The position numbers and the translations under genes are program-made. Source: Patescibacteria group bacterium (GTDB lineage Bacteria > Patescibacteriota > Minisyncoccia > Minisyncoccales > Staskawiczbacteraceae). From it: a stretch of 64,000 nucleotides of DNA. The notes beneath the pieces were generated by a model. The model had not been told where the DNA came from. It saw nothing but the letters and a program-made list of their open reading frames with translations, and searched no databases. The stretch spans positions 157,537-221,536 of the forward strand of contig JAHJTG010000016.1 in assembly GCA_018829965.1 (NCBI GenBank), read 5' to 3'. Shown here piece after piece: positions 29,398 to 43,557 of the stretch (positions are counted from its first letter, which is position 1; the number at the start of each line of letters is the position of its first letter).

Positions 29398-30507
29398 TTA
29401 ATTATATAATGTGGGCACTTGAGATACTTTATAATGTATCGTGTTGTAAAAAGTCCAATGACTTCTCCATTTCTTGCCATGCTTAAGAAAAAAATAAATC
29501 TTTAGAATACTTCGTAAAATAAAAGAGGGGGTTAAAGACGCGATTATAAAAGTGAGAGAAAACATCAAGCCATCTCTAAGTGTTGCTTTTTGAAAAAATC
29601 CTTTTAAAACTCCGAGATAAGACGAATAAAAAAACGTCTTAAAAGCCTTCATTAATATTAAATGCTGGACAATATTCCATCTAAATCCTCTGTCCATTTC
29701 TTTGATTCTTTTGATTGTAGCATCGTTTACATAACCGCTTGACAACAGCAATTTATTCAATCTTTTTTTACACACATAATGTTTCTTGAATCTGTCTTCA
29801 ATGGAAATCTTATAATAAGGCAGCTCTTGAGAAACTATATGTTTATTAAGCGCCAACCCTTTAACATCAGAAAATTTTAAAAACATCAACCGATATAAAA
29901 ATACTTGAGGATAATGGCTTCCGATTGACTTTTCTGCTAATTCCCTTTCTTGCTCTAATATCTTTTTAAAGAAGCTATTTTTAAATATTAAAATACTTAA
30001 AAATACGCTGTCAGGAAAATTTGCCTCGATAATATTCTCTCTATTTATTTCAAAAACCAACGGCTTATCTGGCTCCAGAGAAGTATAATAAACAGTCTTT
30101 TTTCCGGTTTTTTTATCAATAAAATATGCTTCTGATTTAAGAGTGACAAGAGCTGTATTTTCTTTGCAATTTTTCTTAATAAAATTAATCACCTCCTCTA
30201 AACCATTGGGGATGATAGAATCGTCATCTGCAAAAAGCCAAATATAGTCCCCCTCAGACATTTCCATCACTTGGAAAAGATTCCTATCGCCTAAATCTTC
30301 CTTATTTTCATTATATTTTATCAAATCTGGATATTTTTCCTTAAAATTCATTACAACTTCTCGAGTATTATCTGAAGAACCATTATTAGAAACGCATATT
30401 TCAATCCCATCTTTAATTTGAGGTATAATGTAATCCAAAAGATTCTTCAGATAAACTGCTCTATTGTAAGTAGGAATAGCAATACTTAATAAAGGTTTAC
30501 TGCTCAT
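29398..30507 (-). CDS. Glycosyltransferase family 2 with C-terminal membrane segment
   Basis: LSIAIPTYNRAVYLKNLL, NNGSSDNT, FADDDS (DxD), and C-terminal hydrophobic LMFSLTFIIASLTPSFIL. Confidence 0.8.
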   Translation of the reverse strand: MSSKPLLSIAIPTYNRAVYLKNLLDYIIPQIKDGIEICVSNNGSSDNTREVVMNFKEKYPDLIKYNENKEDLGDRNLFQVMEMSEGDYIWLFADDDSIIPNGLEEVINFIKKNCKENTALVTLKSEAYFIDKKTGKKTVYYTSLEPDKPLVFEINRENIIEANFPDSVFLSILIFKNSFFKKILEQERELAEKSIGSHYPQVFLYRLMFLKFSDVKGLALNKHIVSQELPYYKISIEDRFKKHYVCKKRLNKLLLSSGYVNDATIKRIKEMDRGFRWNIVQHLILMKAFKTFFYSSYLGVLKGFFQKATLRDGLMFSLTFIIASLTPSFILRSILKIYFFLKHGKKWRSHWTFYNTIHYKVSQVPTLYN

Positions 30508-31819
30508 AATTTTGGAGAAAGTTTTTCATAATTTTAATCATGTAATTCAACTTATTTCTAGTTATTCCCGGATAAACGCCTATCCAAAAAAGATTATTCA
30601 TTACCAAATCAGTATTTTTTAAGGAACCGAAAACCCTGCACTTTATGTCTTTATAAGCCGGCTGTTTTTTGAGATTTCCGCCAAAAAGCATTCTGGTAGC
30701 GATTTTATTATCTTCCAAATAGTTCACAATTTCGTTCCTAGAAAAAGGAGCACCTTCTTTTAACAGTATCGGAAAGCCAAACCAAGATGGCTGAGAATTT
30801 TTTGTTGCTTGAGGAAAAATTAGATATTTATCGTACTTTTTCAAAAATCCATATAATAGATCAAAGTTTTTCCTTCTTGCTTTAATAAATTGAGGCAGTT
30901 TTTTAAGTTGAGCTACTCCAATCGCCGCCTGCATATCAGTGATTTTAAAATTATAGCCGATATGAGAATAAATATATTTATGGTCATAACCAAATGGTAG
31001 TTTCCCAATTTGCCAAGAAAATCTTTTTTTACAGGTGTTATCCTGACCCGATTCACAGTAGCAATCTCTCCCCCAGTCACGAAAAGAAGCAATAATTTTC
31101 TTTAATTCCCAATTATTAGTTAAAACCGCTCCACCCTCCCCCATTGTAATATGATGAGCAGGAAAAAAACTGCAGGTAGAAATATCTCCAAATGTTCCTG
31201 TGTATTTATTTTTATATTTAGAACCCAAAGCATCGCAATTGTCTTCAATAACCCAGAGATTATGTTTTTTTGCTAATTTTAAAATCTTATCAAGAGCAAC
31301 AGGATTTCCTAATGTGTGAGCAACAAAAATTGCTTTTGTTTTTTTAGAAATTGCTTTTTCAATTTTTCCGACATCTATATTATAGATTCCTAAGCTAACA
31401 TCAACGAAAACTGGAATTAAGTTGTTTTGAATAATTGGGTTTAAAGTAGTTGGAAAACCGCAAGCAGTGGTTATTACTTCGTCTCCGGGTTTTAATCTTC
31501 TCTTTCCGAGTTTTTGCGAAGTTAAAGCAGATATGGCTAAAAGATTAGCTGAAGAGCCGGAATTAACTAAAAGACAGTGCTTTACGCCTAAAAACTCGGC
31601 GAGTTCTTTTTCAAACTGCTGAGCATACCTTCCAGCAGTCAACCAAAAATCAAGCGAGGAGTCAATTAAATTTATCATTTCTTTTTCATTATAAACCCTA
31701 CCAGCATAATTAATGTATGTTTTGCCCGGAATAAATTTCTCCTCTTTTTTTCTTGAATGGCAAATCGCTTTTATTCGGCTAAAAATTTCTTTTTTTAACT
31801 TCAACTGATTATTTGGCAT
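30497..31819 (-). CDS. rfbH: CDP-6-deoxy-4-hexulose 3-dehydrase (E1; RfbH/DdhC/AscC family)
   Basis: 440 aa. LIDSSLDFWLTAGRY, LVNSGSSANLLA and FPAHHITMGEGG (His where aminotransferases have the Schiff-base Lys). Cys cluster RDWGRDCYCESGQDNTCKKRF, consistent with the E1 Fe-S motif. Confidence 0.85.
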   Translation of the reverse strand: MPNNQLKLKKEIFSRIKAICHSRKKEEKFIPGKTYINYAGRVYNEKEMINLIDSSLDFWLTAGRYAQQFEKELAEFLGVKHCLLVNSGSSANLLAISALTSQKLGKRRLKPGDEVITTACGFPTTLNPIIQNNLIPVFVDVSLGIYNIDVGKIEKAISKKTKAIFVAHTLGNPVALDKILKLAKKHNLWVIEDNCDALGSKYKNKYTGTFGDISTCSFFPAHHITMGEGGAVLTNNWELKKIIASFRDWGRDCYCESGQDNTCKKRFSWQIGKLPFGYDHKYIYSHIGYNFKITDMQAAIGVAQLKKLPQFIKARRKNFDLLYGFLKKYDKYLIFPQATKNSQPSWFGFPILLKEGAPFSRNEIVNYLEDNKIATRMLFGGNLKKQPAYKDIKCRVFGSLKNTDLVMNNLFWIGVYPGITRNKLNYMIKIMKNFLQNYEQ

Positions 31820-31823
31820 TTTA

Positions 31824-32936
31824 TTAAGCTCCTATAATTTTTAATAAAGAATCGCAAACAAAATTAACATCTTTTTTAGTTAGATTTGATGCCGAAGAAA
31901 GACAAATACCTCTTTTTTCCACTTTTCCTGCTTCAGGATTATTAAATCTTCTTTCTTGCTCAAAAACCGGAAATAAGCTCATTCTTGGAAATCCTGACCT
32001 GCAATGAATATTAAGATCTTTCAGTTGTTTTAATACCTCGTCTCGCGGAACTGAGATACTGTCTTCTAAAAGAATGGACGAATAGCAATAATTGCTTTTA
32101 CAATTTTCTTTCTCCTTTATAATCTTTATTCCCTTTACACTTTGAAGTCTCTCGTAATACCAATCAAACATCTGTCTCTTCTTTGCAACCAATTCATCAA
32201 TTCTTTCAACTTGAGCCAGAGCAAGCGCCGCTGTCAAGTTTGCTATCGTATACTGATACCCTATTTGATCTGACCAAAAAACTGCTTTAGAATCAGTGCG
32301 ACCCATTGTCGCAAACAACAGCGCTTTCTTATAAAGCTCTTCATTATCTGTTACGAGAATACCTCCTTCTCCACTTACAGTAATTTTTGCGCCCTGAAAA
32401 CTAAAACATCCGAAGTCGCCGAAAGTGCCAACTTTTTGGCCTTTAAATCTAGAGCCGAGGGCTGGAGCAGCGTCTTCAATCACCCGTAAATTATACTCTT
32501 TTGCAATCTCCATAATTTCATCCATCTGAGCAGGATGACCATAAGAATGAACGAGCATAATGGCTTTTGTTTTGTCGGTAATAGCCTTTCTTATTGCTTT
32601 TGGATCAATACACCAGGAATCTGGATCTATATCAACAAAAACAGGAGTTGCTCCGCTGTAAGCAATCGCATAACCAGTAGCAATCCAGCTAAAATCAGTA
32701 CAAATTACTTCGTCTCCTTTTTTCAGCCCTAATGCCATTACTGCCAGATGTAAAGCCATCGTACAACAATGGGTGGCAATCGCATATTTAACGCCTAAAT
32801 ACTCCGGAACTTTCTGTTCAAGCTTTTTTGCGTGCTTATCATAGGTCTCATACCAGCCGTTTTTAACAGCATCCATTACATAATCGATTTCCTTTTGAGT
32901 AATACAGGGACCGGCAAAGCTTATTTTCTTATTCAT
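31824..32936 (-). CDS. DegT/DnrJ/EryC1/StrS-family NDP-sugar aminotransferase
   Basis: 370 aa. FGDFGCFSFQGAKITVSGEGG (active-site Lys) and overall DegT architecture. Confidence 0.85.
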   Translation of the reverse strand: MNKKISFAGPCITQKEIDYVMDAVKNGWYETYDKHAKKLEQKVPEYLGVKYAIATHCCTMALHLAVMALGLKKGDEVICTDFSWIATGYAIAYSGATPVFVDIDPDSWCIDPKAIRKAITDKTKAIMLVHSYGHPAQMDEIMEIAKEYNLRVIEDAAPALGSRFKGQKVGTFGDFGCFSFQGAKITVSGEGGILVTDNEELYKKALLFATMGRTDSKAVFWSDQIGYQYTIANLTAALALAQVERIDELVAKKRQMFDWYYERLQSVKGIKIIKEKENCKSNYCYSSILLEDSISVPRDEVLKQLKDLNIHCRSGFPRMSLFPVFEQERRFNNPEAGKVEKRGICLSSASNLTKKDVNFVCDSLLKIIGA

Positions 32937-33017
32937 AATTATGAGCGAGGAAGATATGAAAATTTATTTTCATATCGACCGAGTGATTAATTATATAAAT
33001 TACGAAGTAATTTCTAT
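32937..33017 (-). promoter_or_regulatory. Conserved leader element, copy B (abuts ATG of 31824-32936; overlaps stop codon of 33014-34174)
   Basis: Gene-sense sequence: ATAGAAATTACTTCGTAATTTATATAATTAATCACTCGGTCGATATGAAAATAAATTTTCATATCTTCCTCGCTCATAATT, then ATG. Hairpin 1 pairs 32997-33003 with 33007-33013. Hairpin 2 pairs 32953-32962 with 32967-32976. TATATAAT lies at 32990-32997. Confidence 0.75.
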
Positions 33018-34174
33018 TTTTTTAATGTTAATAATTTTTCATACGCCTTATTTAATTCTTCGTCTTTTTTTGCGAAACAAAATCTTAATAAATTTTCTCC
33101 GCTTTCATCATGGTAAAAAGCGCTCCCTGGCACGCTTGCAACGCCGGTCTTTTTTAATAGATACATCGCTTTCTCTTTACTTGTTTTACCTGGCAGACAG
33201 CTTGCATCAGCAAAAACGTAATAAGCTCCATGCGAAACAAATGGCGTAAGCCCCACTTTTTTCAAAACAGAGCAGATTTTATCTCGCTTTAACTTATATT
33301 CCGCGCAGATTGACTGATAAAATTCATCGGGTAATTCATTAATTCCTTTAGCAACTCCCATTTGAAGAGGCGCGGGTCCGCAGACATATATCAAATCATT
33401 GACATAACCAATCATAGTCGCCCATTTTTCGTCACAAACGCAATAACCGATTCTCCACCCAGTGATGCTGAATGCTTTTGAATAGCCTGATATAGTAATC
33501 GTTCTATCCTGAATATTTGATAACACTCCTGGGCTTATATGCTTTAAACCATCATAAACAAAGTATTCATATATCTCATCGGTAAAGATAAACAAATCGT
33601 GGCGGATGCAGAAATCTGCTATCTTTTTTAATTCTTCTTCGGAGAAAACCTTGCCCGAAGGATTGGCAGGGGTGTTAATTATTATCCCTTTGGTTTTTTT
33701 AGTTACTGATTTTTCTAATTCGTCTATACTGAATGTCCAATCCGGCGGATTTAACCTAACATATATTGGTTCTATTCCAACTGCTAATAAGGTATTAACA
33801 TGATATCCGTAGTAGGGTTCAAAAACAATAACCTCGTCACCAGAGTTAAGTAGCGCTAAACAGGCTGAATAAAATGCTCCCGTGGCTCCGCAAGAAACAA
33901 TGATATTTTTCTCCGGATCCACGCGCATATTATTGTGCTTCAACATTTTTGAAGCGATTGAATTTCTCAGTTCAGGCAGACCATCATATCTCGTATATTG
34001 GTTTATGCCAGCATCTATCGCATCTTTAGCTCCTTTTTTCACTGGTAAAGGAACCTCTAAATCACAAAAACCCTGAGACAAATTAATCCCGCCTACCTTG
34101 ACGCATTCAATGGACATATTCCTGATTTCAGACTGAACAATTTTTTTAGAACGATCGCTTATAGATAATTTCAT
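33014..34174 (-). CDS. Class I/II PLP aminotransferase (YbdL/kynurenine-aminotransferase-like)
   Basis: 386 aa. NLSQGFCDLEVP and SGYSKAFSITGWRIGY (SxxK...GxR). Confidence 0.85.
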   Translation of the reverse strand: MKLSISDRSKKIVQSEIRNMSIECVKVGGINLSQGFCDLEVPLPVKKGAKDAIDAGINQYTRYDGLPELRNSIASKMLKHNNMRVDPEKNIIVSCGATGAFYSACLALLNSGDEVIVFEPYYGYHVNTLLAVGIEPIYVRLNPPDWTFSIDELEKSVTKKTKGIIINTPANPSGKVFSEEELKKIADFCIRHDLFIFTDEIYEYFVYDGLKHISPGVLSNIQDRTITISGYSKAFSITGWRIGYCVCDEKWATMIGYVNDLIYVCGPAPLQMGVAKGINELPDEFYQSICAEYKLKRDKICSVLKKVGLTPFVSHGAYYVFADASCLPGKTSKEKAMYLLKKTGVASVPGSAFYHDESGENLLRFCFAKKDEELNKAYEKLLTLKK

Positions 34175-34832: not shown

Positions 34833-35324
34833 TTAAATTGTTTTTTTTTGCTTTTCGTCCTCATATTTATTTACTAAAATTTTTATTACCATCTTTCTAA
34901 TATCTGATTTTTCATTAAAAATACATCCTGGCCTATGTATGTCTGTCGGAAAAAATATTACAAACATTCCTCTATTTATAACAAGAAAATGTTCATTCTC
35001 TATTTTTTTATAAAAAGTACAATCTTTTTCTTCATTGTATTCTTCTAATAATTCGTTTTGGGGATTATTAAAACCTAAACCGATTAGCTCTGTCCCCGAA
35101 ATTACATACTGAATATCTATATATTTTTTATGCACTTCAGCTTTTTTTTCTTTTAATTTCTTTGTCTGATAACTAAACAGATTCATAACGACATCCCTTC
35201 CAAGAGGATATTTTCCGTCTGCAAATTTAGAAAAATCGGTTGTTTTTATATAATTTAAATATTTTAATAAAATTTTCGGGAAAACAGATTTTTTATTAAT
35301 TTCAGATATGTTACCTAAAATCAT
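34833..35324 (-). CDS. YhcH/YjgK/YiaL-family (DUF386) cupin-like protein
   Basis: 163 aa. EVHKKYIDIQYVISGTELIG and IFFPTDIHRPG match the signature I recall for this sialic-acid-associated family. Confidence 0.65.
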   Translation of the reverse strand: MILGNISEINKKSVFPKILLKYLNYIKTTDFSKFADGKYPLGRDVVMNLFSYQTKKLKEKKAEVHKKYIDIQYVISGTELIGLGFNNPQNELLEEYNEEKDCTFYKKIENEHFLVINRGMFVIFFPTDIHRPGCIFNEKSDIRKMVIKILVNKYEDEKQKKTI

Positions 35325-35914
35325 ATTTGTAATAATTTATTTATTTTTAAAAATGTTTCTTTTAATGAGTTTTTATTATTATTCCAAGGCCTTGGAAAAG
35401 TTATCGTTTTTATTCCAAAGGCTTCAACAGATTGTATATTTTCTAAAGAATCGTCAACAAAGAAGTCTACCTTATTATAACCAAGGTATTCTCCTTTGTT
35501 TTTATCATACTGAGGTATAATTATACCTTCCCTATGAGAGGGTATGAAATGAAATGTTCTTATCCACTTCCCATAATTTCTTATAACCCATTCGGCAGAT
35601 ATCGAAGCTGTAGCAAATGGAGTACTAGTCAGAGCAATATGTCTACACCTATCTCCGTATTTTGAAAACCAATCCAAAACTTCCGGAATCGGTTTTAACT
35701 CAAAATATTTACTCCGTCTGAATTCATCCAATGAAGCAAGATATTCTTCCTTTGAAACTCCCAATAGTTCATGCGGGGGATTCTTTAATATATCTTTATA
35801 GTCAACCTTACATTCGGGATGTTCGAGCTTCCATAATTTTTCGAACCATTCCTTCATTAATTCATTCAATACATCATCTATATCCCACGCTATCGTAAAT
35901 GTTTTATTTTTCAT
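35321..35914 (-). CDS. HAD-superfamily phosphatase (NT5C-like)
   Basis: 197 aa. N-terminal FTIAWDIDDVLNEL (DxDxV nucleophile motif) and C-terminal FFVDDS. Confidence 0.6.
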   Translation of the reverse strand: MKNKTFTIAWDIDDVLNELMKEWFEKLWKLEHPECKVDYKDILKNPPHELLGVSKEEYLASLDEFRRSKYFELKPIPEVLDWFSKYGDRCRHIALTSTPFATASISAEWVIRNYGKWIRTFHFIPSHREGIIIPQYDKNKGEYLGYNKVDFFVDDSLENIQSVEAFGIKTITFPRPWNNNKNSLKETFLKINKLLQI

Positions 35915-35915
35915 A

Positions 35916-37562
35916 TTATTTTTCCTTTAATAAACCAGCTTCCCACTTAGGAAGCTTTTTTTGCTCAGGATCGATAAAAACTTCACAGAAGATAGGACCA
36001 TCAAAATCTAATACAGATTTTATTTTATCTAAATCCTTTCCATTTTTTATCGATTCGTATTTTATTCCCCAAGCAGGAGCTAATTTACTCCAATCAGGAA
36101 ATCCGACTCCTGAGCTTTTATCACAGGCAAAAACTTTGTTGAAGAACTTCAAATGGGTGTTTCTTATGGAATAATACCCTCCATTATTGAATAAAAATAT
36201 CTTTATCGGGAGCTTGTGATAAATCACTGTTTGTAGTTCCTGAATATTCATCATAATTGAACCGTCCCCCTCCAAACATATCACCGGCTTCTTATTATTA
36301 GCGATGCAAGCTCCGATTGACATTGGAAGTCCTTTACCCATTTCGCCGAAAGCAGTATTAGTAATCAATCTTTGCCCCTTTTTCAGTTTCAATGCCTGAT
36401 GTGGCGTTTCTGCGACCATGCCGTTTGAAGTAATTACTGAATAATCGCATTTTCCGCTTAAAGTTTCTAAAAACTGATAAGCGTCAACATATTTATTATT
36501 TGCTTCGTAAGAAACAGGCTTTTTCTCAATATCCCATCTTTTCAATTTAATATCCTGTTTTAACGTTCCTTCTAGAAAATCTTTAGCATCAACACAAACA
36601 GGAGTATCAATTTTTAATGTCCTTTTATATAGCTCAGCCTTATCTATATCAACCATTATCTTAACAGCATTTTCAGCAAACTTTTTATACTCAAAAGAAG
36701 TATTCCTGATTTGCATTCTCGTTCCAACGATAAGAAGCAAATCGCAATTATCAAATGCATAGTTTGCAGTTTCTACCCCCGATAATCCCTGTTCCCCTAA
36801 ATAGTACGGATAATCATCATTCACTAAATCAGTTCCGCTCATTGCCGAAACAACATTAATTTTTGTTTTTTTAATAAATTCCCATAGTTCTGGAACTGCG
36901 CCAGCTAACCTAATCCCATTCCCAACTATCATTAAAGGTTTTTTAGCTTTATTTAAAGCTTCTATTATTTCTTTGAAAGGGATATTATATTTCGGTTTTT
37001 CCGGCGCTTCAAAACCAATCAAATTATTTTCGTCAATTTCGGCACATTGGACATCCAAAGGAATCTCAAGCCAGACAGGCCCCGGCTTTCCTGATTTGGC
37101 CAGATAACAAGCTTTCTCAAGGTGATACTTTATTTCATCCGGGTTCTCAACGCAAACTGCATATTTTGTTATCGGCTTTACAACATCCAGCAAATTTATT
37201 TCCTGTGGCTCTCCTAACCTTCTCAATCCGTTTTCTATGTCTTCCCTAGTAAGCTTTATCTCTTTCCTGACCTGCCCAGAAATAATCATCATCGGGATTC
37301 CATCAACCCAAGCAGCAGCAACCCCAGTGATCGTATTCGTCCCTCCAGGACCCGTTGTAACGCTTGCAACGCCGATTCTATTGCTTATCCTTGAATAACC
37401 TTCGGCGGCAAGAGCACAGGACTGCTCATGATGGCAACAATAAGAATCCAGTTGGGACTTCCCGATGGAATCAACTGTATGCATACATCCTCCTCCCGAA
37501 ACAAGAAAAATGCTGTCTGTAATTTTTTCTAAATGTTTTACTAAATAGTCGCTTAATTTCAT
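35916..37562 (-). CDS. Thiamine-diphosphate-dependent enzyme, acetolactate-synthase large-subunit-like (YerE-like candidate)
   Basis: About 548 aa. TGPGGTN, and a ThDP-binding GDGS motif (CLEGDGSIMMNIQELQT...NNGGY). Start placed at the internal Met (MKLSDYLVKHL, 37562); the track start is 37595. Confidence 0.85.
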   Translation of the reverse strand: MKLSDYLVKHLEKITDSIFLVSGGGCMHTVDSIGKSQLDSYCCHHEQSCALAAEGYSRISNRIGVASVTTGPGGTNTITGVAAAWVDGIPMMIISGQVRKEIKLTREDIENGLRRLGEPQEINLLDVVKPITKYAVCVENPDEIKYHLEKACYLAKSGKPGPVWLEIPLDVQCAEIDENNLIGFEAPEKPKYNIPFKEIIEALNKAKKPLMIVGNGIRLAGAVPELWEFIKKTKINVVSAMSGTDLVNDDYPYYLGEQGLSGVETANYAFDNCDLLLIVGTRMQIRNTSFEYKKFAENAVKIMVDIDKAELYKRTLKIDTPVCVDAKDFLEGTLKQDIKLKRWDIEKKPVSYEANNKYVDAYQFLETLSGKCDYSVITSNGMVAETPHQALKLKKGQRLITNTAFGEMGKGLPMSIGACIANNKKPVICLEGDGSIMMNIQELQTVIYHKLPIKIFLFNNGGYYSIRNTHLKFFNKVFACDKSSGVGFPDWSKLAPAWGIKYESIKNGKDLDKIKSVLDFDGPIFCEVFIDPEQKKLPKWEAGLLKEK

Positions 37563-37576
37563 AAAAATATAGCCAA

Positions 37577-39094
37577 TTAATCTATTTTTAACCAATGGGT
37601 TAATTGAGTTTTTCTATTCTTATTTTCCATTATCTTATTATCGTAATAAAAAGAATCGTCCTTGAAATGAGTGGTTGATATTTCTTCAAGAATAGCGCCG
37701 TTTTTTGTTCCAAAACTGTGCTTCGCCCCTCTCTGGATTAAAACAATCTCTCCCGTCTTATATTCTTTTTCTTTTCCATCAAGATTTATACCCAAGTTTC
37801 CATATAGAATCTGAAAACTTTCTTCTTTTTGCTTGTGAAGATGAACGGGATGATTCTGGCCGGGAAATAGAACAATCAGTTTTTTGCAGTATTCCCTGTT
37901 AACGCAATTGAAAATAACCGCTCCGTGTTTATAAAAATTATCTATTCCGTAATGATGAGACACTTCCACCTCTAATTTATCAGGAAGAGCTATTTTTGCC
38001 TCCTCTAAAAACTTCCTGGCTTCAGTTATAATCTTATATACTTTTTCTCTGTTATTTGACGCTTTGACATCGGAAAAAAATATTGAAGCGTTTTTCTTTA
38101 TATCCTTCTCAGAAAAATAATCAATATATTTTGACATATTGTTTGCCAGCAATTGATTATCTATATTCGGCCAGGCAAAAAATGTATTAGATGTGTTTAT
38201 TTTATCGCCTTTTATTATTTGTTTCTTAGCAAAAACTCCTCTTTGGAATTGCCTTAAATCAGCCAACTCTTTTTCAGAAAATCCCGCTCTTTTGTGAAAA
38301 ATACCACAAGTAGTAAATGTTTTTTGAGCTGCTTCTAACCATTGCTCGATTTGCGATGGCGTTGCGGAATAATTATTAAGTTCAATTCCTTCAACTTTTA
38401 TCCCGACATGTTTTTCAAAAATAGTTGCTCCTTTGGCAGTAGCTATTTTGATTGAATCAAAATTATCAGGACTTTCATGGGTGGAATAACCGATTTCCAC
38501 TTCAGGATACCGCTTTTTTAATAAATCGATTTGATTCAGTTGGATATTTTCCGGTAAAGTCGGGTATTCTCCAACACAGTGCATTAAAGAAAGCTTTTTT
38601 CCTCTATGCCCAAGAAAGCTAACTACTTTATCTATATCTTCCAGGGACACTCCGGCAACAGAAACAATAATCGGTTTATCTGTTTTAACGATTTTTTCTA
38701 AAAGTGGCCAATCAGTAAAAGAACAGCTAGCTATTTTAATAAAATCGAAATTAAGCTTCTCAATTAGATCAACTGAGTTTTCATCAAAGGGGGTACAGAT
38801 AGAAATAAATCCCAGTTTATCAATTTCGTCTTTCAGAATTTTAAATTCCTCTTCTTTCAGCTTCGTCTCTGAAAATCGCTTCACGTATTTCAAATCAGTC
38901 CTGTTCTGATAATCCGGATGGATAAAGGTCGGGATATCACGGGATTGCAGCTTGAAAGCAAAATTGAAGGAGAATTTTTTACTTACCTTGTGAATTTCTC
39001 TGATGATTCTCAATCCATGCTCAACCTTACCTTGATGATTGTTGGCCATCTCAAATATGAATAATGGCCTTTGTTGAATGTTTTTTATAGACAT
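37577..39094 (-). CDS. NeuB-family ulosonate synthase with SAF domain fused to a C-terminal cupin (D-lyxose/mannose-isomerase-like)
   Basis: About 505 aa. NeuB motifs FIFEMANNHQG, FKLQS, CTPFDENS, IKIASCS, MHCVGEYPT, GYSTHE and FEKHV. SAF-like FQRGVFAKKQIIKGDKI. The last ~120 aa read FPGQNHPVHLHKQKEESFQILYG...GAKHSF (cupin His/Glu pattern). Start placed at the internal Met (39094); the track start is 39133. Confidence 0.8.
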   Translation of the reverse strand: MSIKNIQQRPLFIFEMANNHQGKVEHGLRIIREIHKVSKKFSFNFAFKLQSRDIPTFIHPDYQNRTDLKYVKRFSETKLKEEEFKILKDEIDKLGFISICTPFDENSVDLIEKLNFDFIKIASCSFTDWPLLEKIVKTDKPIIVSVAGVSLEDIDKVVSFLGHRGKKLSLMHCVGEYPTLPENIQLNQIDLLKKRYPEVEIGYSTHESPDNFDSIKIATAKGATIFEKHVGIKVEGIELNNYSATPSQIEQWLEAAQKTFTTCGIFHKRAGFSEKELADLRQFQRGVFAKKQIIKGDKINTSNTFFAWPNIDNQLLANNMSKYIDYFSEKDIKKNASIFFSDVKASNNREKVYKIITEARKFLEEAKIALPDKLEVEVSHHYGIDNFYKHGAVIFNCVNREYCKKLIVLFPGQNHPVHLHKQKEESFQILYGNLGINLDGKEKEYKTGEIVLIQRGAKHSFGTKNGAILEEISTTHFKDDSFYYDNKIMENKNRKTQLTHWLKID

Positions 39095-39098
39095 ATTA

Positions 39099-40121
39099 TT
39101 ATTCGTAATATTTTTTAAGCCGCTCGGCATCATTAATAGTTATAACATCTTCTGGAAACAATCTATGTTTAACTATTTTGCATTTTGCACATATTTCTCC
39201 TACGTTTTTGATACCATCCAGCATTTTGCACCTAAACCCTTGAAACTCCTTGCCATTCCATATTTCAGATACTGATTGATTGTTGCAATCACCAACAAAA
39301 CCAGGAAATTCATAAGAATAACAAGGGATTACTTTCCCATCGGTATTAATTCTCAGTGTAAAAAATGGCTGTGGGCAAACTAACACATCTGAAGCTGGCA
39401 ACCCGAATTGAGTAACCGATTTGTCTTCACCTTTTAACACTTTCCCGTAATCTACATTCGGCTGGATCGGAACAATATGTTCAATAGCAATGATATCGCA
39501 AATATCCCCAAAAAGCTTATAAAACCTTTCTTCGTCCTCTTTATTTTCTAATGCTTCATCTACGATTTTGATATAAAGTTTAGTGTTCTTTTTCTTATTA
39601 TCAAAAAAATATCGCAGATTCTCAACAAAATTTTCGAAATCTATGTCCACTCCAGACACTTCTTTATACTTTTCTTTTGTCGTCCCCTGCAATGATACGA
39701 TCAATCTTGAAAGCCCAGCTGAAATAAGCGAATCTGACATCTCGGGAGTTAAAAGCGAGGCGTTTGTTAATATCTCTATGTCATTGGTAATATTTTTTAA
39801 AGCGGCGTATTCCACCATATCAGCTATATTTTTATGCAGGAGGGGCTCGCCAATTCCTGAAAAACGCAATATCTTCAATTTATCAGGAAAAAGAACAATG
39901 TCATTTATGCATTTTTTATACAAGCCGAAATCCATAATAATCTTATCTGAAATAAAATTCCGCTCTTCTTTTTTCACCGACATCATGCAATATTTGCAAG
40001 TAAAGTTGCAGGCATGCATTGGATATATTTCTATCATAAAAGGAGTGTTCAAAGGAAGCACTTCTGCAAGCTTCTTTCTTTTTCCTCCCGGCGCTTGTCC
40101 GCTGATATTTTTTGCCTTCAT
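39099..40121 (-). CDS. Radical SAM enzyme with C-terminal SPASM/twitch-type Cys-rich domain
   Basis: 340 aa. YPMHACNFTCKYC (CxxxCxxC). C-terminal Cys pattern VCPQPFF...GKVIPCYSY...GDCNNQ...CAKCK. Confidence 0.85.
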   Translation of the reverse strand: MKAKNISGQAPGGKRKKLAEVLPLNTPFMIEIYPMHACNFTCKYCMMSVKKEERNFISDKIIMDFGLYKKCINDIVLFPDKLKILRFSGIGEPLLHKNIADMVEYAALKNITNDIEILTNASLLTPEMSDSLISAGLSRLIVSLQGTTKEKYKEVSGVDIDFENFVENLRYFFDNKKKNTKLYIKIVDEALENKEDEERFYKLFGDICDIIAIEHIVPIQPNVDYGKVLKGEDKSVTQFGLPASDVLVCPQPFFTLRINTDGKVIPCYSYEFPGFVGDCNNQSVSEIWNGKEFQGFRCKMLDGIKNVGEICAKCKIVKHRLFPEDVITINDAERLKKYYE

Positions 40122-40125
40122 TTGT

Positions 40126-41208
40126 TTAACTTATATTAAATGGTTTTTTAGTTTTATCCTTATCAGTGAAAACTTCGGAACAAGGAACTGGAAGTGGCTT
40201 TCCATAAATCTTTTTCACTAAATAGTTATCAATAAAATTCCTATCTTCTGCAATAGTACACGTATCAACATACTCACCAAAATATTTAATATCTAATCCC
40301 CTTTTGATTATGTCTTTCAAGGGCTCTTCAAAAACATTGCCGATGGACGTATGAATATACGGACAAGGCAAAACGTCTCCATATTGGGTCACAGATATCA
40401 TTCCTTTAACTCCTATACAGCCCATATTAATGCCATAGGCCGGAGTTAAATGAGTATAAACATTATATTTCTTTTCAAGGTTGTTTCTCATATAATCTAT
40501 ATCGTCCTTATTAACCAAAATATCAAAATTACCCTCCCAAGAACCAACCGGCTTTGCATAAGTTACAAACACTCCAATCCCTCTTTTATTGAAATATTCA
40601 ATAAATTTGATGAATTCGTCTGAATAAAGCCTCTGTTTTGTAACAACAGTTTGAATAAAAATATTCAAACCTGCCGCTAAAGTCGCGTCAACCGCTTTCA
40701 TTGCCCTTTCGTGCGCACCTTTAGCTTTCCTAAAACTATCGTGTTCTTTAGCATCAAGACTGTCTATGCTTAATTGGACTCTATCAACGCCTATCTCTCT
40801 AAGATGCTTGGCTTTTTTTTCATCTAAAAACCATCCATTAGTATCAACATTAATATAGAATTTTTGAGGGTCAATAGCTTTAACTAATTCATCAAAATCC
40901 GGAAATACTAATGGTTCTCCGCCTGTAATCACAAAGCGCGCCAAACCTATCTCGTCGGCCTGCCGGCTGAGATTTTTTACATCATCCATAGTAAATTGCC
41001 GCTTTTCATTTCTACCTTGAAATTTCTTTACCGAGCAGTGTTGACACTGAAAATTACAAACGTAATTATATTGAAACTGAATAATAGCAATACTTTCTCC
41101 ACGTTTAATCTTTTCATCAAATTTCATAATTTTTTCATAGACATACGGCTTTTCTTCTTTCAAACGATTTCTTTTTTCTGCTTCTAATTTTTGCTGATTT
41201 ATTGGCAT
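40126..41208 (-). CDS. Radical SAM enzyme (MoaA/NirJ/PqqE-like) with twitch/SPASM-like C-terminus
   Basis: 360 aa. QYNYVCNFQCQHCS, ITGGEPLV, and C-terminal GCIGVKGMISVTQYGDVLPCPY...DTC. Confidence 0.85.
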   Translation of the reverse strand: MPINQQKLEAEKRNRLKEEKPYVYEKIMKFDEKIKRGESIAIIQFQYNYVCNFQCQHCSVKKFQGRNEKRQFTMDDVKNLSRQADEIGLARFVITGGEPLVFPDFDELVKAIDPQKFYINVDTNGWFLDEKKAKHLREIGVDRVQLSIDSLDAKEHDSFRKAKGAHERAMKAVDATLAAGLNIFIQTVVTKQRLYSDEFIKFIEYFNKRGIGVFVTYAKPVGSWEGNFDILVNKDDIDYMRNNLEKKYNVYTHLTPAYGINMGCIGVKGMISVTQYGDVLPCPYIHTSIGNVFEEPLKDIIKRGLDIKYFGEYVDTCTIAEDRNFIDNYLVKKIYGKPLPVPCSEVFTDKDKTKKPFNIS

Positions 41209-41230
41209 ATTTTTTATTTTAATTTAATTA

Positions 41231-42457
41231 TTATTTATTGCTTAATTTTTGATATTGTTCATATTCTAAAGGCTTACTTGTTTGAATGGACGGCGTTATC
41301 TCGGAATCTCCGAATGACCTTCCATTACAAAAATCACATGCTTCTAAATAATCTTTATTCAAAAGATAATCTCTAACCTTATTCTTCGTCGCCAATATGC
41401 CCTTTTCATCTAATGGCTCCTGGAATAAATCGATGTAATCATTTTTACAATCCGGAACTGCCCTAAGTCTGGCGGCATTGGCGATAAAAGGGCATCTGTA
41501 TAATTTTCCATCTGATATATTAACTGTGTTTTTAGCGCAACATTTTCCAAAAATTTCTTTTTGCTGTTTAGGGTTACGATTATGCCTCTTTATTTTAGAA
41601 CAATCTGTCCAGCCTTGAGCTTTCCGTGAATAAAAGGCGATATTCTTGCTTGATAGTTTTTGAATCAAAGCATCTAAATTTCTTGAAAGCAGACCATAAT
41701 CTGTAATCATAAGCAGTACTTTATTGTTTTTCAAGCATTCTATCTTTTCGTCCGGAGGAACTATTGTTCCATTTACATAAACTATAATCTTCTTTACCTT
41801 AGGCTCATCGATTAATCTTTTTATCACTAAATCAAAGTCTCTATTCATAAACGGATCACCGCCAATAACCCTGAACTCATTAACCTCGTCCATAATACTG
41901 CAAAATGTATCTATAGATTTCATTAATTCTTCGGCGTCGCAATCCTTAGGATTTTTGTAATACTGCGTAAGATTAGAACAATCTCTGCATTTTAAAGAAC
42001 AGCGTTCGGTAATGATAATATCGACGCTTCTTAAGAAAAGCTTATCGGGGGTCAGATAACTGTCGTGGCAGAAAAGACAAGTATCAACCGCATATTGAAC
42101 AAAATCGCTTGGGGCACTGAATTGATATTTAAATATATCAAAGTCTTTTAGCAACAAATTAGACGGATACCATTTGGAGAATCCTAAACTAGATAATTGC
42201 TCAACCACGTCTTTTATATCAGCTGCCGATATTAAGAAAATAGCATCTTGATATTTCTTTTTCAAATCAGAAACAGGGATTACTTCAATATCAGCCTTTT
42301 TATTAATGTTATTATCGCAAAAACACTCGACTTTAATTCCTGCGTCGCAACAAGCTTTTAATATCACTTCGCCAACAATACCGGCTCCGAATATTATTAT
42401 CGGCAATCCTTTATCTTTAATCTCTTTAATGATTTTTTGATTTGAAAAATTTTTCAT
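41231..42457 (-). CDS. Rossmann-like N-terminal domain fused to radical SAM/SPASM-like enzyme
   Basis: 408 aa. IIIFGAGIVGEVILKAC (GxGxxG), ITERCSLKCRDCSN (CxxxCxxC), and C-terminal CCAKNTVNISDGKLYRCPF...CDFCNG. Confidence 0.8.
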   Translation of the reverse strand: MKNFSNQKIIKEIKDKGLPIIIFGAGIVGEVILKACCDAGIKVECFCDNNINKKADIEVIPVSDLKKKYQDAIFLISAADIKDVVEQLSSLGFSKWYPSNLLLKDFDIFKYQFSAPSDFVQYAVDTCLFCHDSYLTPDKLFLRSVDIIITERCSLKCRDCSNLTQYYKNPKDCDAEELMKSIDTFCSIMDEVNEFRVIGGDPFMNRDFDLVIKRLIDEPKVKKIIVYVNGTIVPPDEKIECLKNNKVLLMITDYGLLSRNLDALIQKLSSKNIAFYSRKAQGWTDCSKIKRHNRNPKQQKEIFGKCCAKNTVNISDGKLYRCPFIANAARLRAVPDCKNDYIDLFQEPLDEKGILATKNKVRDYLLNKDYLEACDFCNGRSFGDSEITPSIQTSKPLEYEQYQKLSNK

Positions 42458-42462
42458 TGAAG

Positions 42463-43557
42463 TTATTTAATAATGTCTTCTTTTTTAAGCTTTTTGTATC
42501 TTTTAAAAGCTTTGTACTGACACATCCAGATAATCAGCCGGACAAGCTTTAGCTTCATTAAAACAGGGATTATCTTGCTTTCGCCTTTTGAGGGAGAATA
42601 AAATCGTAGATTATCCCTAAAATTTGAATCATTGATTATTTGACAGATAAACTCATAAGTCTTTTTCTTATTACTGCTATTAATCTGACCACAAATACGG
42701 ACTAATTGAATTATGGCTAAAAAGATATCGGCATGTCCAACTTCTTTTTCTATATTAATGCCAAAACCACAATCTTTAAGGAAGCTTTTTATTCTAATAA
42801 GAGCTTGTCTATATCCGAATAATATTTCGGGATGATTGCCTATTGCCATTGCCGCCGAAGTATAATTATTGAAAACCAAATGATTGTATATCGTTTCCTT
42901 TAAGAAAGACGCCTTTTCTATGTGATTTAGATAGTCGAAATTAAAGGCTACATCTTCAAACGTACGCAAATTATTATCAAAGTGGATATCATTGTTTTTT
43001 ATAATCGATGATTTAAATAATCTTCCCCAAGAATATGCGAATAGCTGGAAACTATTGGGTTTTTTTAAATAACACCTAACATAATCTATAATATCTTTTT
43101 TTGTTAACAATTTGCTTTCTAAAAGAATACGGCCGTGTCCAGAATCAGGATTGTTGTTATCATTAATCTTTCTGAAATCTCCTATTATTATATCTGCTTT
43201 TATTCGACGATAATTTTCTATTAACAAGCTTATGGCATTATTTTCGATGAAATCATCGGAGTCAAGAAAGAATATAAAACTTCCTTTTGAATTTTCTATA
43301 CCTATATTTCTAGCGGCTGCCGGACCATTATTTTCTGTATGTATTACCTTAATTCTTTTGTCATTAAGCACATATTCATCGCAAATCTTTCCGCTATTAT
43401 CAGTTGACCCATCGTCAATAAGTATTATCTCTATTTTTTTATAAGTTTGGCCTATAATGCTTCCCAAACAGCGATCAAGATATCTTTCAACATTATATAC
43501 CGGGATTATAACACTTATCAGGTCGTCGATTAATTTGTCATTATTAGTTTCTTCCAT
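42463..43557 (-). CDS. Glycosyltransferase family 2
   Basis: ISVIIPVYNVERYLDRCLGSIIGQTYKKIEIILIDDGSTDNS and FLDSDD. Confidence 0.85.
   Translation of the reverse strand: MEETNNDKLIDDLISVIIPVYNVERYLDRCLGSIIGQTYKKIEIILIDDGSTDNSGKICDEYVLNDKRIKVIHTENNGPAAARNIGIENSKGSFIFFLDSDDFIENNAISLLIENYRRIKADIIIGDFRKINDNNNPDSGHGRILLESKLLTKKDIIDYVRCYLKKPNSFQLFAYSWGRLFKSSIIKNNDIHFDNNLRTFEDVAFNFDYLNHIEKASFLKETIYNHLVFNNYTSAAMAIGNHPEILFGYRQALIRIKSFLKDCGFGINIEKEVGHADIFLAIIQLVRICGQINSSNKKKTYEFICQIINDSNFRDNLRFYSPSKGESKIIPVLMKLKLVRLIIWMCQYKAFKRYKKLKKEDIIK

What the first reader, a model, noticed from the sequence alone, without database searches (positions are those of the whole stretch)
35916..37562. Acetolactate-synthase-like ThDP enzyme inside the sugar cluster: candidate branched-chain sugar synthase (YerE-like)
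A full-length ThDP enzyme (GDGS...NNGGY motif) has no obvious role in amino-acid biosynthesis here. No ilvN, ilvC or ilvD genes are adjacent, and it is translationally packed between a HAD phosphatase and the NeuB-cupin gene. The established precedent is YerE of Yersinia pseudotuberculosis. That enzyme transfers a two-carbon unit from pyruvate onto a CDP-3,6-dideoxy-4-keto-hexose to make the branched sugar yersiniose. The same locus encodes RfbF, an RfbG-like dehydratase and the E1 3-dehydrase, which together make exactly that kind of acceptor.
Basis: inference. Interest (0 to 1): 0.55.

Follow-up and report, generated by a model that had tools for sequence, protein, structure and literature searches.

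The report
Sugar-branching thiamine enzyme, not acetolactate synthase
This gene of an ultra-small groundwater bacterium encodes a thiamine-dependent enzyme that most likely grafts a carbon side chain onto a CDP-activated dideoxy sugar for the cell surface, and its neighbours suggest the side chain is a long sugar acid rather than the two-carbon unit first proposed.

Summary
The ORF is real: 35916-37562, minus strand, 548 aa, with all three ThDP-enzyme domains, Glu57 and GDG-X24-NN.

It is not an acetolactate synthase. It scores 341 bits against a cut-off of 738. The 0.74-Mb, 99.7%-complete Patescibacteria genome has no IlvN or IlvC. Relatives in ordinary bacteria sit beside a genuine AHAS.

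The closest solved enzyme is JanthE (343 bits). PpYerE scores 232 and plant AHAS 213. In a tree the protein falls in a family separate from AHAS (support 100).

Of 51 related loci with at least 8 kb on both sides, 39 also carry the E1 3-dehydrase. 43 carry exactly the kind of enzyme that makes 2-oxo acids: NeuB-type (19), HpcH/HpaI aldolase (15), HMGL-like aldolase (7) or two of these (2). The NeuB type and the aldolases almost exclude each other. Natural NeuB-ThDP, HAD-ThDP, aminotransferase-ThDP and radical-SAM-ThDP fusions exist.

So the sugar-branching reading holds. The donor is more likely a NeuB-cupin-made ulosonic acid than pyruvate. No YerF-like reductase and no E3 were found.

This scan has already met the same cassette on other DNA, in dozens of genomes. 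It is a new variant of the known acyl-branched-sugar scheme.

The parts
35916..37562 (-). ThDP-dependent carboligase of the JanthE/YerE-like sugar-branching family (the finding)
   Evidence: Three ThDP domains. Below every AHAS cut-off. Best PDB match is JanthE 8rph at 343 bits. In the tree it falls in a clade with support 100, apart from AHAS.
37577..39133 (-). NeuB-family PEP-condensing synthase fused to a C-terminal cupin; proposed maker of the 2-oxo acid donor
   Evidence: Pfam NeuB plus Cupin_2. Orthologue present in all 6 full-flank loci of the close clade. NeuB-ThDP fusion P0123. NeuB type nearly exclusive with the HpcH/HMGL aldolases.
35321..35914 (-). NT5C-like HAD-superfamily phosphatase, 1 nt downstream of the ThDP gene
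   Evidence: Pfam NT5C. Other loci have a HAD_2 or Hydrolase_3 gene at the same place, and ThDP-HAD fusions P0063 and P0254 exist. There is no sequence similarity to those HADs.
34833..35324 (-). YhcH/DUF386-family protein (N-acetylneuraminate-anomerase-like)
   Evidence: TIGR00022 at 146 bits, above its cut-off; NF040884 at 139 bits, below its 160 cut-off. A YhcH gene lies directly upstream of the ThDP gene in Woesearchaeota locus L010. Function of YhcH: PMC8141875.
34178..34864 (-). GNAT acetyltransferase (accessory, specific to this window)
   Evidence: Pfam Acetyltransf_3 and Acetyltransf_1. Absent from nearly all related loci.
33014..34174 (-). Class I/II amino-acid aminotransferase (accessory; possible alternative source of a 2-oxo acid)
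   Evidence: Pfam Aminotran_1_2. An aminotransferase-ThDP fusion, P0125, exists; its aminotransferase domain is 30% identical.
31824..32936 (-). DegT-type sugar aminotransferase (LegC/PseC-like, accessory)
30497..31819 (-). E1 / RfbH CDP-6-deoxy-4-hexulose 3-dehydrase; makes the proposed acceptor
   Evidence: NF011936 at 735 bits against a cut-off of 423. 559 bits to PDB 3bcx, AHH in place of Lys, Fe-S Cys motif. Present in 39 of 51 full-flank related loci.
44973..45767 (-). RfbF-like glucose-1-phosphate cytidylyltransferase
   Evidence: TIGR02623 at 239 bits, the best hit but under its cut-off. Co-occurs with the ThDP gene in 30 of 47 full-flank loci.
44053..45012 (-). NDP-hexose 4,6-dehydratase (RfbG-like)
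   Evidence: Co-occurs in 34 of 47 full-flank loci.
43562..44050 (-). NUDIX-like protein, closest to GDP-mannose mannosyl hydrolase
   Evidence: Weak Pfam NUDIX hit. Best PDB matches are 2i8t and 1rya at E 8e-6. Orthologue in all 6 full-flank loci of the close clade and in none of the 41 others.
39099..42457 (-). Three radical SAM genes (two SPASM/twitch type), tailoring enzymes of the cassette
   Evidence: rSAM_B is 64-83% identical in all 6 close loci. Radical-SAM-ThDP fusions P0046, P0126 and P0127.
42463..43557 (-). GT2 glycosyltransferase inside the cassette
29398..30507 (-). GT2 glycosyltransferase downstream of E1, conserved in the closest relatives

Best explanation
The gene encodes a ThDP-dependent carboligase of the sugar-branching ('YerE-like') kind, in the lineage of JanthE. 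Proposed mechanism: ThDP attacks the 2-keto group of a 2-oxo acid, CO2 leaves, and the resulting acyl-carbanion equivalent adds to the C4 ketone of a CDP-4-keto-3,6-dideoxyhexose. That acceptor is made by the RfbF-like, RfbG-like and E1 genes of the same operon. The product is a C4-acyl-branched tertiary-alcohol sugar, which the adjacent GT2 enzymes place in the exported surface glycan. The donor is most likely not pyruvate. It is more likely a longer 3-deoxy-2-ulosonic acid made by the NeuB-cupin protein encoded 14 nt upstream (PEP plus an aldose). The Gmm-like NUDIX hydrolase may free the aldose, the phosphatase may remove a phosphate, and the YhcH-type anomerase may offer the open keto form. 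Shown: gene, domains and motifs; separation from AHAS; closest solved relative; conserved gene neighbourhood; gene fusions. Inferred: acceptor, donor, order of steps and product.
For: Not AHAS:
- The best AHAS equivalog scores 341 bits against a cut-off of 738; TIGR00118 scores 319 against 538.
- The complete 0.74-Mb genome has no IlvN or IlvC.
- It is 27-31% identical to genuine AHAS, against 39-45% to the sugar-cluster family.
- Brachyspira, Arsenicibacter, Lachnospiraceae MC2017 and Sphingomicrobium each hold a genuine AHAS (674-760 bits) as well as the sugar-cluster paralogue (307-374 bits).
- The AHAS Trp at window position 480 is Thr, and the family has its own NNxGY(Y/S)SIR signature.

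Kinship:
- JanthE (PDB 8rph) is the best solved match at 343 bits, then PpYerE 5ahk at 232 and plant AHAS at 213. JanthE is a characterised ketone-accepting 'YerE-like' enzyme (PMC12188165, PMC12247030).
- In the tree the family has support 100 against the AHAS outgroup, and the window sits in a 12-row clade, also with support 100.

Acceptor:
- E1 is present in 39 of 51 full-flank loci. RfbF and RfbG are present in about 30 of 47.
- The window's E1 is genuine.
- Locus L087 has a NeuB-ThDP fusion next to an E1-RfbF fusion and an RfbG-like gene.

Donor:
- 43 of 51 full-flank loci carry a NeuB-type (19), HpcH/HpaI (15) or HMGL-like (7) gene, or both NeuB-type and HpcH/HpaI (2).
- NeuB-type against the aldolases: Fisher p = 9e-6, not corrected for kinship.
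- HpcH-type and BphI/HMGL-type aldolases are the published donor makers for caryophyllose and erwiniose (PMC9306805). Brachyspira has RfbF-RfbG-E1-HMGL aldolase-ThDP.
- Fusions: NeuB-ThDP P0123, class I aminotransferase-ThDP P0125, ThDP-HAD P0063 and P0254, radical-SAM-ThDP P0046, P0126 and P0127.
- No CMP-ulosonate synthetase gene accompanies NeuB-cupin in any of the five cassette loci read.
- A YhcH gene lies in the sub-operon here and directly upstream of the ThDP gene in an archaeal relative. YhcH supplies the open form of Neu5Ac (PMC8141875).
- The NUDIX-like protein is closest to GDP-mannose mannosyl hydrolase.
Against: - No biochemical data exist for any member of this clade, and JanthE's own physiological substrates are unknown (PMC12188165).
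- I could not fetch YpYerE, ErwE, MMAR_2332 or MyGE sequences, so their place relative to this clade is untested.
- No NAD_binding_1 or Fer2 (E3/AscD-type) protein is in the genome. How E1 is reduced, and so whether the 3,6-dideoxy-4-keto acceptor is really formed, stays open.
- The 289-aa SDR that accompanies the ThDP gene in 37 related loci (a YerF-like candidate) has no orthologue here.
- The HAD_2 gene goes more often with HpcH-type than with NeuB-type loci in the wider family. A simple 'NeuB product phosphate phosphatase' role is therefore not general.
- 12 of 51 full-flank loci lack E1, and 8 of 51 lack any of the three donor-enzyme types.
- Co-occurrence counts are not phylogenetically independent.
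Confidence: 0.6

Rival explanations
1. A YerE-type enzyme transfers the two-carbon unit of pyruvate to CDP-4-keto-3,6-dideoxyhexose, giving a yersiniose-like acetyl or hydroxyethyl branch. The NeuB-cupin gene serves another sugar.
For: YpYerE does exactly this with the same acceptor (PMC9306805, PMC12247030). JanthE accepts pyruvate among other donors (PMC12188165). 8 of 51 related full-flank loci have none of the three donor-enzyme types, so some family members may use a common metabolite.
Against: The window protein is only 32-36% identical to PpYerE-type copies and scores 232 bits to PpYerE, close to its AHAS score. NeuB-cupin is conserved with it in 6 of 6 close loci, lies 14 nt upstream and lacks a CMP-transferase partner. 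A NeuB-ThDP fusion exists. No YerF orthologue was found. ErwE, which has a clustered aldolase, rejects pyruvate (PMC9306805).
Confidence: 0.17
2. It is a plain 2-oxo-acid decarboxylase. It shortens the NeuB-cupin product by one carbon to an aldehyde or 2-deoxy-aldose that enters another route. The link to E1 only reflects two sugars of one glycan.
For: All ThDP enzymes of this superfamily can release the aldehyde. The NeuB and HAD fusions fit a donor-side link only. 12 of 51 full-flank loci lack E1.
Against: E1 is present in 39 of 51 loci, across many phyla and with three different donor-enzyme types. L087 combines NeuB-ThDP with E1-RfbF. The nearest characterised enzymes (JanthE, PpYerE) are carboligases that accept ketones (PMC12247030).
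Confidence: 0.12
3. It is a carboligase as in the best explanation, but the donor in this window is a 2-oxo acid made from an amino acid by the class I/II aminotransferase three genes downstream.
For: An aminotransferase-ThDP fusion (P0125) exists in the family. Transamination is a recognised route to donors; ErwE and MyGE accept 4-methylthio-2-oxobutanoate (PMC9306805).
Against: The window's aminotransferase is only 30% identical to the fused one. It is absent from the closest relatives L101, L102 and L007, which keep NeuB-cupin. It sits in an accessory insert with GNAT and DegT.
Confidence: 0.07
4. It is a biosynthetic or catabolic acetolactate synthase that merely lies in a sugar locus.
For: Automatic annotations of relatives say 'acetolactate synthase large subunit'. 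The fold and motifs are shared.
Against: It scores far below every AHAS cut-off. There is no IlvN or IlvC in a 99.7%-complete genome. The clade is separate, with support 100. The AHAS Trp is missing. Genuine AHAS coexists with the paralogue in four other genomes.
Confidence: 0.02

Closest known systems
JanthE of Janthinobacterium sp. HH01 (PDB 8rph, 8rpi, 8rpj)
   Same: Best solved match: 343 bits over residues 4-539. Same three-domain ThDP architecture and the same HHEQ and GY-x-IK/R-x-T type active-site stretch. JanthE is a ketone-accepting carboligase with a wide range of 2-oxo acid donors (PMC12188165, PMC12247030).
   Different: JanthE has a CDG instead of a GDG ThDP motif; the window protein has the canonical GDGS. 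JanthE's physiological substrates are unknown. It is about equally distant from every clade of the family (322-373 bits), so it is a relative, not an orthologue.
YerE of Yersinia pseudotuberculosis and PpYerE of Pseudomonas protegens (PDB 5ahk); yersiniose A pathway
   Same: The proposed acceptor, CDP-4-keto-3,6-dideoxy-D-glucose, is the same, and homologues of DdhA/RfbF, DdhB/RfbG and DdhC/E1 are in the locus. The chemistry is the same: decarboxylative addition to a ketone.
   Different: PpYerE scores only 232 bits, against 213 for AHAS. PpYerE-type proteins form a separate lineage that occurs as a second ThDP gene in loci L049 and L070. There is no YerF orthologue and no E3/DdhD here. A dedicated donor-making enzyme lies next to the gene, so a C2 branch is unlikely. 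The YpYerE sequence itself was not compared.
Erwiniose, caryophyllose and 'gastriose' pathways (ErwE/ErwI/ErwJ/ErwF; MMAR_2332/MMAR_2331; MyGE/MygI/MygF): the 'unifying scheme' of Steitz et al. 2022, PMC9306805
   Same: Same logic: a C-C-forming enzyme makes a 4-hydroxy-2-oxo acid, a ThDP enzyme grafts it onto the CDP-ketosugar, and tailoring follows. Related loci of this family carry HpcH/HpaI (as MMAR_2331) or HMGL/BphI-like (as ErwI) aldolases at the place where this window has NeuB-cupin.
   Different: The donor maker here is a PEP-dependent NeuB-family synthase fused to a cupin, not a pyruvate aldolase. I found no mention of this in the papers I could read; Krug et al. 2024 could not be read. 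The cassette adds three radical SAM enzymes, a Gmm-like NUDIX protein and a phosphatase. The hosts are CPR bacteria and DPANN archaea. Sequence kinship to ErwE, MMAR_2332 and MyGE was not tested.
Acetohydroxyacid synthase large subunit (IlvB/IlvG/IlvI)
   Same: Same superfamily, three domains, ThDP motif and catalytic Glu.
   Different: 27-31% identity. Below all curated cut-offs. No small subunit or other ilv genes. Active-site Trp replaced. Separate clade.
Pseudaminic/legionaminic acid pathways (PseB/C/H/G/I/F)
   Same: The donor branch may follow the same order: NDP-sugar tailoring, nucleotide removal (here the Gmm-like NUDIX), then condensation with PEP by a NeuB homologue. The window also holds DegT and GNAT genes resembling LegC/PseC and, weakly, PseH.
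   Different: No CMP-transferase goes with this NeuB; a ThDP enzyme stands where activation would follow. A complete, separate nonulosonic-acid module with its own NeuB-SAF and cytidylyltransferase lies at 48-58 kb of the window.

Membership tests
YerE-like ThDP sugar-branching carboligases (decarboxylase superfamily) | Three-domain ThDP enzyme with catalytic Glu and GDG-X24-27-NN motif | tested here: met
   Pfam N, M and C domains. E57 and GDGS-X24-NN at 443-471.
YerE-like ThDP sugar-branching carboligases (decarboxylase superfamily) | Closer in sequence to characterised YerE-like enzymes than to AHAS | tested here: met
   JanthE 343 bits and PpYerE 232 bits, against the best AHAS at 213 bits. 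The margin over AHAS is clear for JanthE and marginal for PpYerE. YpYerE, ErwE, MMAR_2332 and MyGE were not available for comparison.
YerE-like ThDP sugar-branching carboligases (decarboxylase superfamily) | Clustered with genes for CDP-4-keto-3,6-dideoxyhexose (DdhA/RfbF, DdhB/RfbG, DdhC/E1, DdhD/E3) | tested here: inconclusive
   RfbF-like, 4,6-dehydratase and genuine E1 are present and conserved across the family. No E3-type protein (NAD_binding_1, Fer2) is in the genome.
YerE-like ThDP sugar-branching carboligases (decarboxylase superfamily) | Paired NAD(P)H-dependent YerF/ErwF-type reductase of the new branch | tested here: not met
   The 289-aa SDR found in 37 related loci has no orthologue in the window or genome; the best matches are paralogues at 24-31% identity. 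Other SDRs (28463-29383, 54988-55929) or the DegT/GNAT pair could take the role.
YerE-like ThDP sugar-branching carboligases (decarboxylase superfamily) | Carboligation of a 2-oxo acid onto a ketone or ketosugar acceptor | not testable with these tools
   Needs an enzyme assay.
Aldolase-coupled long-branch pathways ('unifying scheme', PMC9306805) | A dedicated enzyme forming a 4-hydroxy-2-oxo acid encoded beside the ThDP gene | tested here: met
   NeuB-cupin lies 14 nt upstream. 43 of 51 related loci hold a NeuB-, HpcH- or HMGL-type gene, and the types nearly exclude one another. A NeuB-ThDP fusion exists. That the NeuB product is the donor is inferred.
Acetohydroxyacid synthase, catalytic subunit | Score above curated equivalog cut-offs | tested here: not met
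   341 bits against 738 for NF006524; 319 against 538 for TIGR00118.
Acetohydroxyacid synthase, catalytic subunit | Regulatory small subunit and the rest of the ilv pathway in the genome | tested here: not met
   No TIGR00119 and no TIGR00465 match in the 99.7%-complete genome, while the controls matched in 13-14 of 14 genomes.
Phosphonopyruvate / sulfopyruvate decarboxylases | Short ThDP enzymes without the central (TPP_enzyme_M) domain, clustered with PEP mutase or sulfo-pathway genes | tested here: not met
   The central domain is present at 118 bits. No PEP mutase is among the annotated neighbours.

The most novel reading that the evidence does not exclude
The cassette builds a very large C-C-linked 'sugar-on-sugar' monosaccharide. 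One CDP-4-keto-6-deoxyhexose pool is split in two. One part is freed from its nucleotide (Gmm-like NUDIX, phosphatase), isomerised and condensed with PEP by NeuB-cupin to a nonulosonic-type acid. That acid is opened by YhcH, decarboxylated by the ThDP enzyme and grafted onto the other part, which E1 has made into CDP-4-keto-3,6-dideoxyhexose. Three radical SAM enzymes then tailor the roughly C14 product. The whole module moves horizontally between CPR bacteria and DPANN archaea (72% identity across domains). It would then be a shared surface sugar of ultra-small cells, made without the canonical E3 reductase.
Probability: 0.25. Interest if true: 0.75.

Novelty: new variant of a known kind. Interest (0 to 1): 0.55.

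Why it matters
Acyl-branched sugars such as yersiniose, erwiniose and caryophyllose are rare surface sugars, and some are linked to pathogenesis or immune modulation. Their ThDP enzymes are sought as catalysts for chiral tertiary alcohols. This gene shows that the same logic operates in a 0.74-Mb Patescibacteria genome, where at least this 64-kb window (about 9% of the DNA) is nearly all glycan genes.

It also points to a third, PEP-dependent way of making the side-chain donor. If that holds, the product would be an undescribed higher-carbon sugar on cells whose surface chemistry is unknown. The enzyme would be a carboligase that accepts polyhydroxylated ulosonic acids.

The practical point for annotation is that hundreds of 'acetolactate synthase large subunit' calls in sugar loci are wrong.

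Tried and rejected
- Fetching named YerE-type references. A homologue search from the Sphingomicrobium member returned only Sphingomonadales relatives. The 80 genome loci held no Yersinia, Pectobacterium, Mycobacterium or Janthinobacterium record. The representative library has no names. So no tree with YpYerE, ErwE, MMAR_2332 or JanthE was built, and PDB scores served as anchors instead.
- Papers by Lanza et al. 2024 and Krug et al. 2024 are not held. The supplement of PMC9306805 is not held.
- I expected HAD to travel with NeuB, as ulosonate-phosphate synthase plus phosphatase. In the wider family HAD_2 goes more with HpcH loci, so that simple pairing was dropped as a general rule.
- The N-terminal extensions of fused forms P0253 and P0287 are not HpcH aldolases. 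P0272 has a weak cupin.
- The window's phosphatase is not similar to the HAD_2 of relatives.
- RNA evidence: no RNA holder is listed among public runs. The DNA is held by groundwater metagenomes, two of which may be its source.
- No structure prediction or complex prediction was run. The sequence match to a solved structure is already at E 2e-101, and no binding claim is made.
One paper reading failed on a bracketed term.
Full report
**The observation.** The window is about 32% G+C and nearly all its genes lie on the minus strand. The ORF at 35916-37562 (-) starts with ATG and encodes 548 aa. The longer TTG frame to 37595 runs into the end of the upstream gene. Pfam finds TPP_enzyme_N, TPP_enzyme_M and TPP_enzyme_C. 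The sequence shows HHEQ with Glu57 and GDGS-X24-NN at 443-471. The upstream NeuB-cupin gene ends 14 nt before the ATG. The downstream NT5C-like HAD gene starts 1 nt after the stop.

**The surroundings.** Transcribed from high to low coordinates, the window holds the following:
- a complete nonulosonic-acid module (PseB-like, DegT, NeuB-SAF, cytidylyltransferase) at 48-58 kb;
- Wzm and Wzt;
- the block that contains the finding: RfbF-like, NDP-hexose 4,6-dehydratase, a NUDIX-like protein, GT2, three radical SAM genes, NeuB-cupin, the ThDP gene, the HAD-type phosphatase, YhcH, GNAT, a class I/II aminotransferase, a DegT aminotransferase, E1/RfbH and GT2.

E1 is genuine. It scores 735 bits to NF011936 (cut-off 423) and 559 bits to Yersinia E1 (PDB 3bcx). 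It has AHH in place of the Schiff-base Lys and the C..CxC-x7-C iron-sulfur motif.

**It is not an acetolactate synthase.**
- The best AHAS models score 341 bits against a cut-off of 738, and 319 against 538.
- The genome is 739,551 bases in 18 contigs and 99.7% complete. It has no IlvN, no IlvC and no other AHAS-like gene.
- The only other ThDP enzyme in the genome is an indolepyruvate:ferredoxin oxidoreductase.
- In Brachyspira pulli, Arsenicibacter rosenii, Lachnospiraceae MC2017 and a Sphingomicrobium genome, a genuine AHAS (674-760 bits, over the cut-off) coexists with the sugar-cluster paralogue (307-374 bits).
- The window protein is 27-31% identical to those AHAS, 32-36% to PpYerE-type copies, 39-45% to the wider sugar-cluster family and 54-87% to its own clade.
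- The Trp that AHAS has at window position 480 is Thr in this family, which has its own NNxGY(Y/S)SIR(N/Q)T signature.

**What it is related to.** The best solved structure is JanthE (8rph) at 343 bits and E 2e-101. PpYerE (5ahk) follows at 232 bits and plant AHAS at 213. JanthE is described as a YerE-like, ketone-accepting carboligase with a wide donor range and unknown physiological substrates (PMC12188165, PMC12247030).

I built a tree of 92 sequences with four genuine AHAS as outgroup. It separates the sugar-cluster family with support 100. It places the window in a 12-row clade, also with support 100. That clade is made of Patescibacteria, Pacearchaeota, Woesearchaeota, Nanoarchaeia, a marine metagenome form and uncultured Gammaproteobacteria.

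Second ThDP genes in loci L049 and L070 are PpYerE-type (396 and 343 bits to 5ahk). They branch between AHAS and the main family. So there are two sugar-cluster lineages, and this gene is of the JanthE type.

I could not obtain YpYerE, ErwE, MMAR_2332 or MyGE sequences, so their position is not tested.

**Gene neighbourhood across 80 genome loci and six metagenome loci.**
- By tblastn with the window's proteins, 47 loci have at least 9 kb on both sides. Of these, 35 carry E1, 30 RfbF and 34 the dehydratase.
- By clustering all ORFs, E1 is in 39 of 51 full-flank loci.
- Next to the ThDP gene there is nearly always an enzyme that forms 2-oxo acids: NeuB-type only in 19 loci, HpcH/HpaI aldolase only in 15, HMGL-like aldolase only in 7, NeuB plus HpcH in 2, and none in 8.
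- NeuB-type and the two aldolase types almost exclude each other. Fisher p is 9e-6, but kin are not independent.
- In Brachyspira the order is RfbF, RfbG, E1, HMGL-like aldolase, ThDP.

HpcH-type and BphI/HMGL-type aldolases are the published donor makers of the caryophyllose and erwiniose pathways. ErwE refuses pyruvate (PMC9306805). The NeuB-type enzyme therefore stands at the place of the aldolase in a known scheme.

**Fusions.** Natural fusions tie the ThDP enzyme to its neighbours:
- NeuB-ThDP: P0123, 1154 aa;
- class I aminotransferase-ThDP: P0125;
- ThDP-HAD_2: P0063 and P0254;
- radical SAM-ThDP: P0046, P0047, P0126 and P0127;
- ThDP-FkbM methyltransferase: P0124;
- a weak cupin-ThDP: P0272.

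The locus of P0123 also has an E1-RfbF fusion and an RfbG-like gene. That gives the minimal system in three genes.

**The close clade.** The closest relatives are L101 (85% identity), L007 (83%) and L102 (81%). They show the order RfbF, RfbG, NUDIX-like, radical SAMs, NeuB-cupin, ThDP, HAD, E1, GT2. None of the five cassette loci read with Pfam has a CMP-ulosonate synthetase beside NeuB-cupin. This fits a NeuB product that is consumed rather than activated.

The phosphatase next to the ThDP gene is of three unrelated HAD types in different loci: HAD_2, Hydrolase_3 and, here, NT5C-like. A phosphatase step therefore seems to be required.

The window differs from its relatives in two ways. It has an insert of YhcH, GNAT, class I aminotransferase and DegT between the phosphatase and E1. 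It also lacks the 289-aa SDR and the roughly 390-aa C-methyltransferase-like gene.

**Two further clues to a long, cyclising donor.**
- A YhcH-family gene lies in this sub-operon, and another lies directly upstream of the ThDP gene in Woesearchaeota locus L010. YhcH is an anomerase that gives the open keto form of Neu5Ac, which is more than 99% cyclic in solution (PMC8141875). A ThDP enzyme must attack the open 2-keto group. This link is my inference.
- The conserved NUDIX-like protein is closest to GDP-mannose mannosyl hydrolase (E 8e-6). To my knowledge that enzyme frees a sugar from its nucleotide, as PseG does before PseI.

**Open points.**
- No NAD_binding_1 or Fer2 protein exists in the genome, so E3 is missing. 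In five other genomes with this family, the NAD_binding_1 hits lie away from the locus.
- No YerF-type orthologue is present.
- The gene is patchy in its phylum. It was found in 20 of 300 other sampled genomes at E of 1e-60 or better, and in none of 16 genomes from the same class or order.
- It is 72% identical between this bacterium and a Pacearchaeota archaeon. This points to horizontal transfer.

**Relation to earlier notes of this scan.** I consulted them after forming my reading. They describe the same cassette on this genome and in dozens of others and reach similar conclusions. They are not independent evidence. Points I have not seen in them:
- the three-way replacement statistics;
- the pairing of a NeuB-ThDP fusion with an E1-RfbF fusion;
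- the separate PpYerE-type lineage;
- the coexistence with genuine AHAS;
- the YhcH and Gmm-like arguments.

**Verdict.** The gene is a real, intact, sugar-branching ThDP carboligase of the JanthE lineage. It probably does not hold for the two-carbon donor.

Noticed in passing
window 30497-31819, and the whole genome G000: E1 has the full [2Fe-2S] Cys motif and His for Lys, yet no NAD_binding_1 or Fer2 (E3/AscD-type) protein is found anywhere in the 99.7%-complete genome. In five other genomes with this family the NAD_binding_1 hits lie far from the locus. The electron donor of E1 is unknown. The genome does have an indolepyruvate:ferredoxin oxidoreductase, so a ferredoxin pool is likely.
   Followed up: partly
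window 35321-35914; L101:11651-12307; L102:9060-9995: The phosphatase gene touching the ThDP gene belongs to three mutually dissimilar HAD types in different loci: NT5C-like here, HAD_2 and Hydrolase_3 elsewhere. This is non-orthologous replacement at a fixed position.
   Followed up: partly
L087:10001-13465 and L087:18550-20439: One 1-Mb metagenome contig carries a NeuB-ThDP fusion (1154 aa, with about 220 unassigned C-terminal residues). About 5 kb away it carries an E1-RfbF fusion (629 aa) next to an RfbG-like gene.
   Followed up: partly
L049:5117-6907; L070:14729-16441; L037:6690-8489; L063:7148-8953: Several related sugar loci hold two ThDP genes. In L049 and L070 the second is PpYerE-type (396 and 343 bits to PDB 5ahk). 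These loci may therefore make two different branches or two branched sugars.
   Followed up: partly
window 43562-44050: The conserved 162-aa NUDIX-like protein is 56-67% identical in the close clade and absent from the wider family. It is closest to GDP-mannose mannosyl hydrolase. It could be the nucleotide-sugar hydrolase that frees the aldose for NeuB-cupin.
   Followed up: partly
L010:292-771: A YhcH/DUF386 gene lies directly upstream of the ThDP gene in a Woesearchaeota contig. This is the only other locus with this pairing among those examined.
   Followed up: no
window 1-64000: Nearly the whole 64-kb window, about 9% of a 0.74-Mb genome, is glycan biosynthesis and export on one strand. 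It includes a second, complete nonulosonic-acid module with its own NeuB-SAF and cytidylyltransferase at 48-58 kb.
   Followed up: no
G000:C3:101455-103062 (L006:1453-3105): The only other ThDP enzyme of the genome is an indolepyruvate:ferredoxin oxidoreductase alpha/beta pair. No thiamine pyrophosphokinase (TIGR01378) was found, so ThDP supply probably depends on uptake or another kinase.
   Followed up: partly
L018:8179-9336 and 14 other loci: A 3-dehydroquinate-synthase-like gene and a classical short-chain dehydrogenase recur in about 15 loci of the wider family. Their role in the branched-sugar pathway is unexplained.
   Followed up: no
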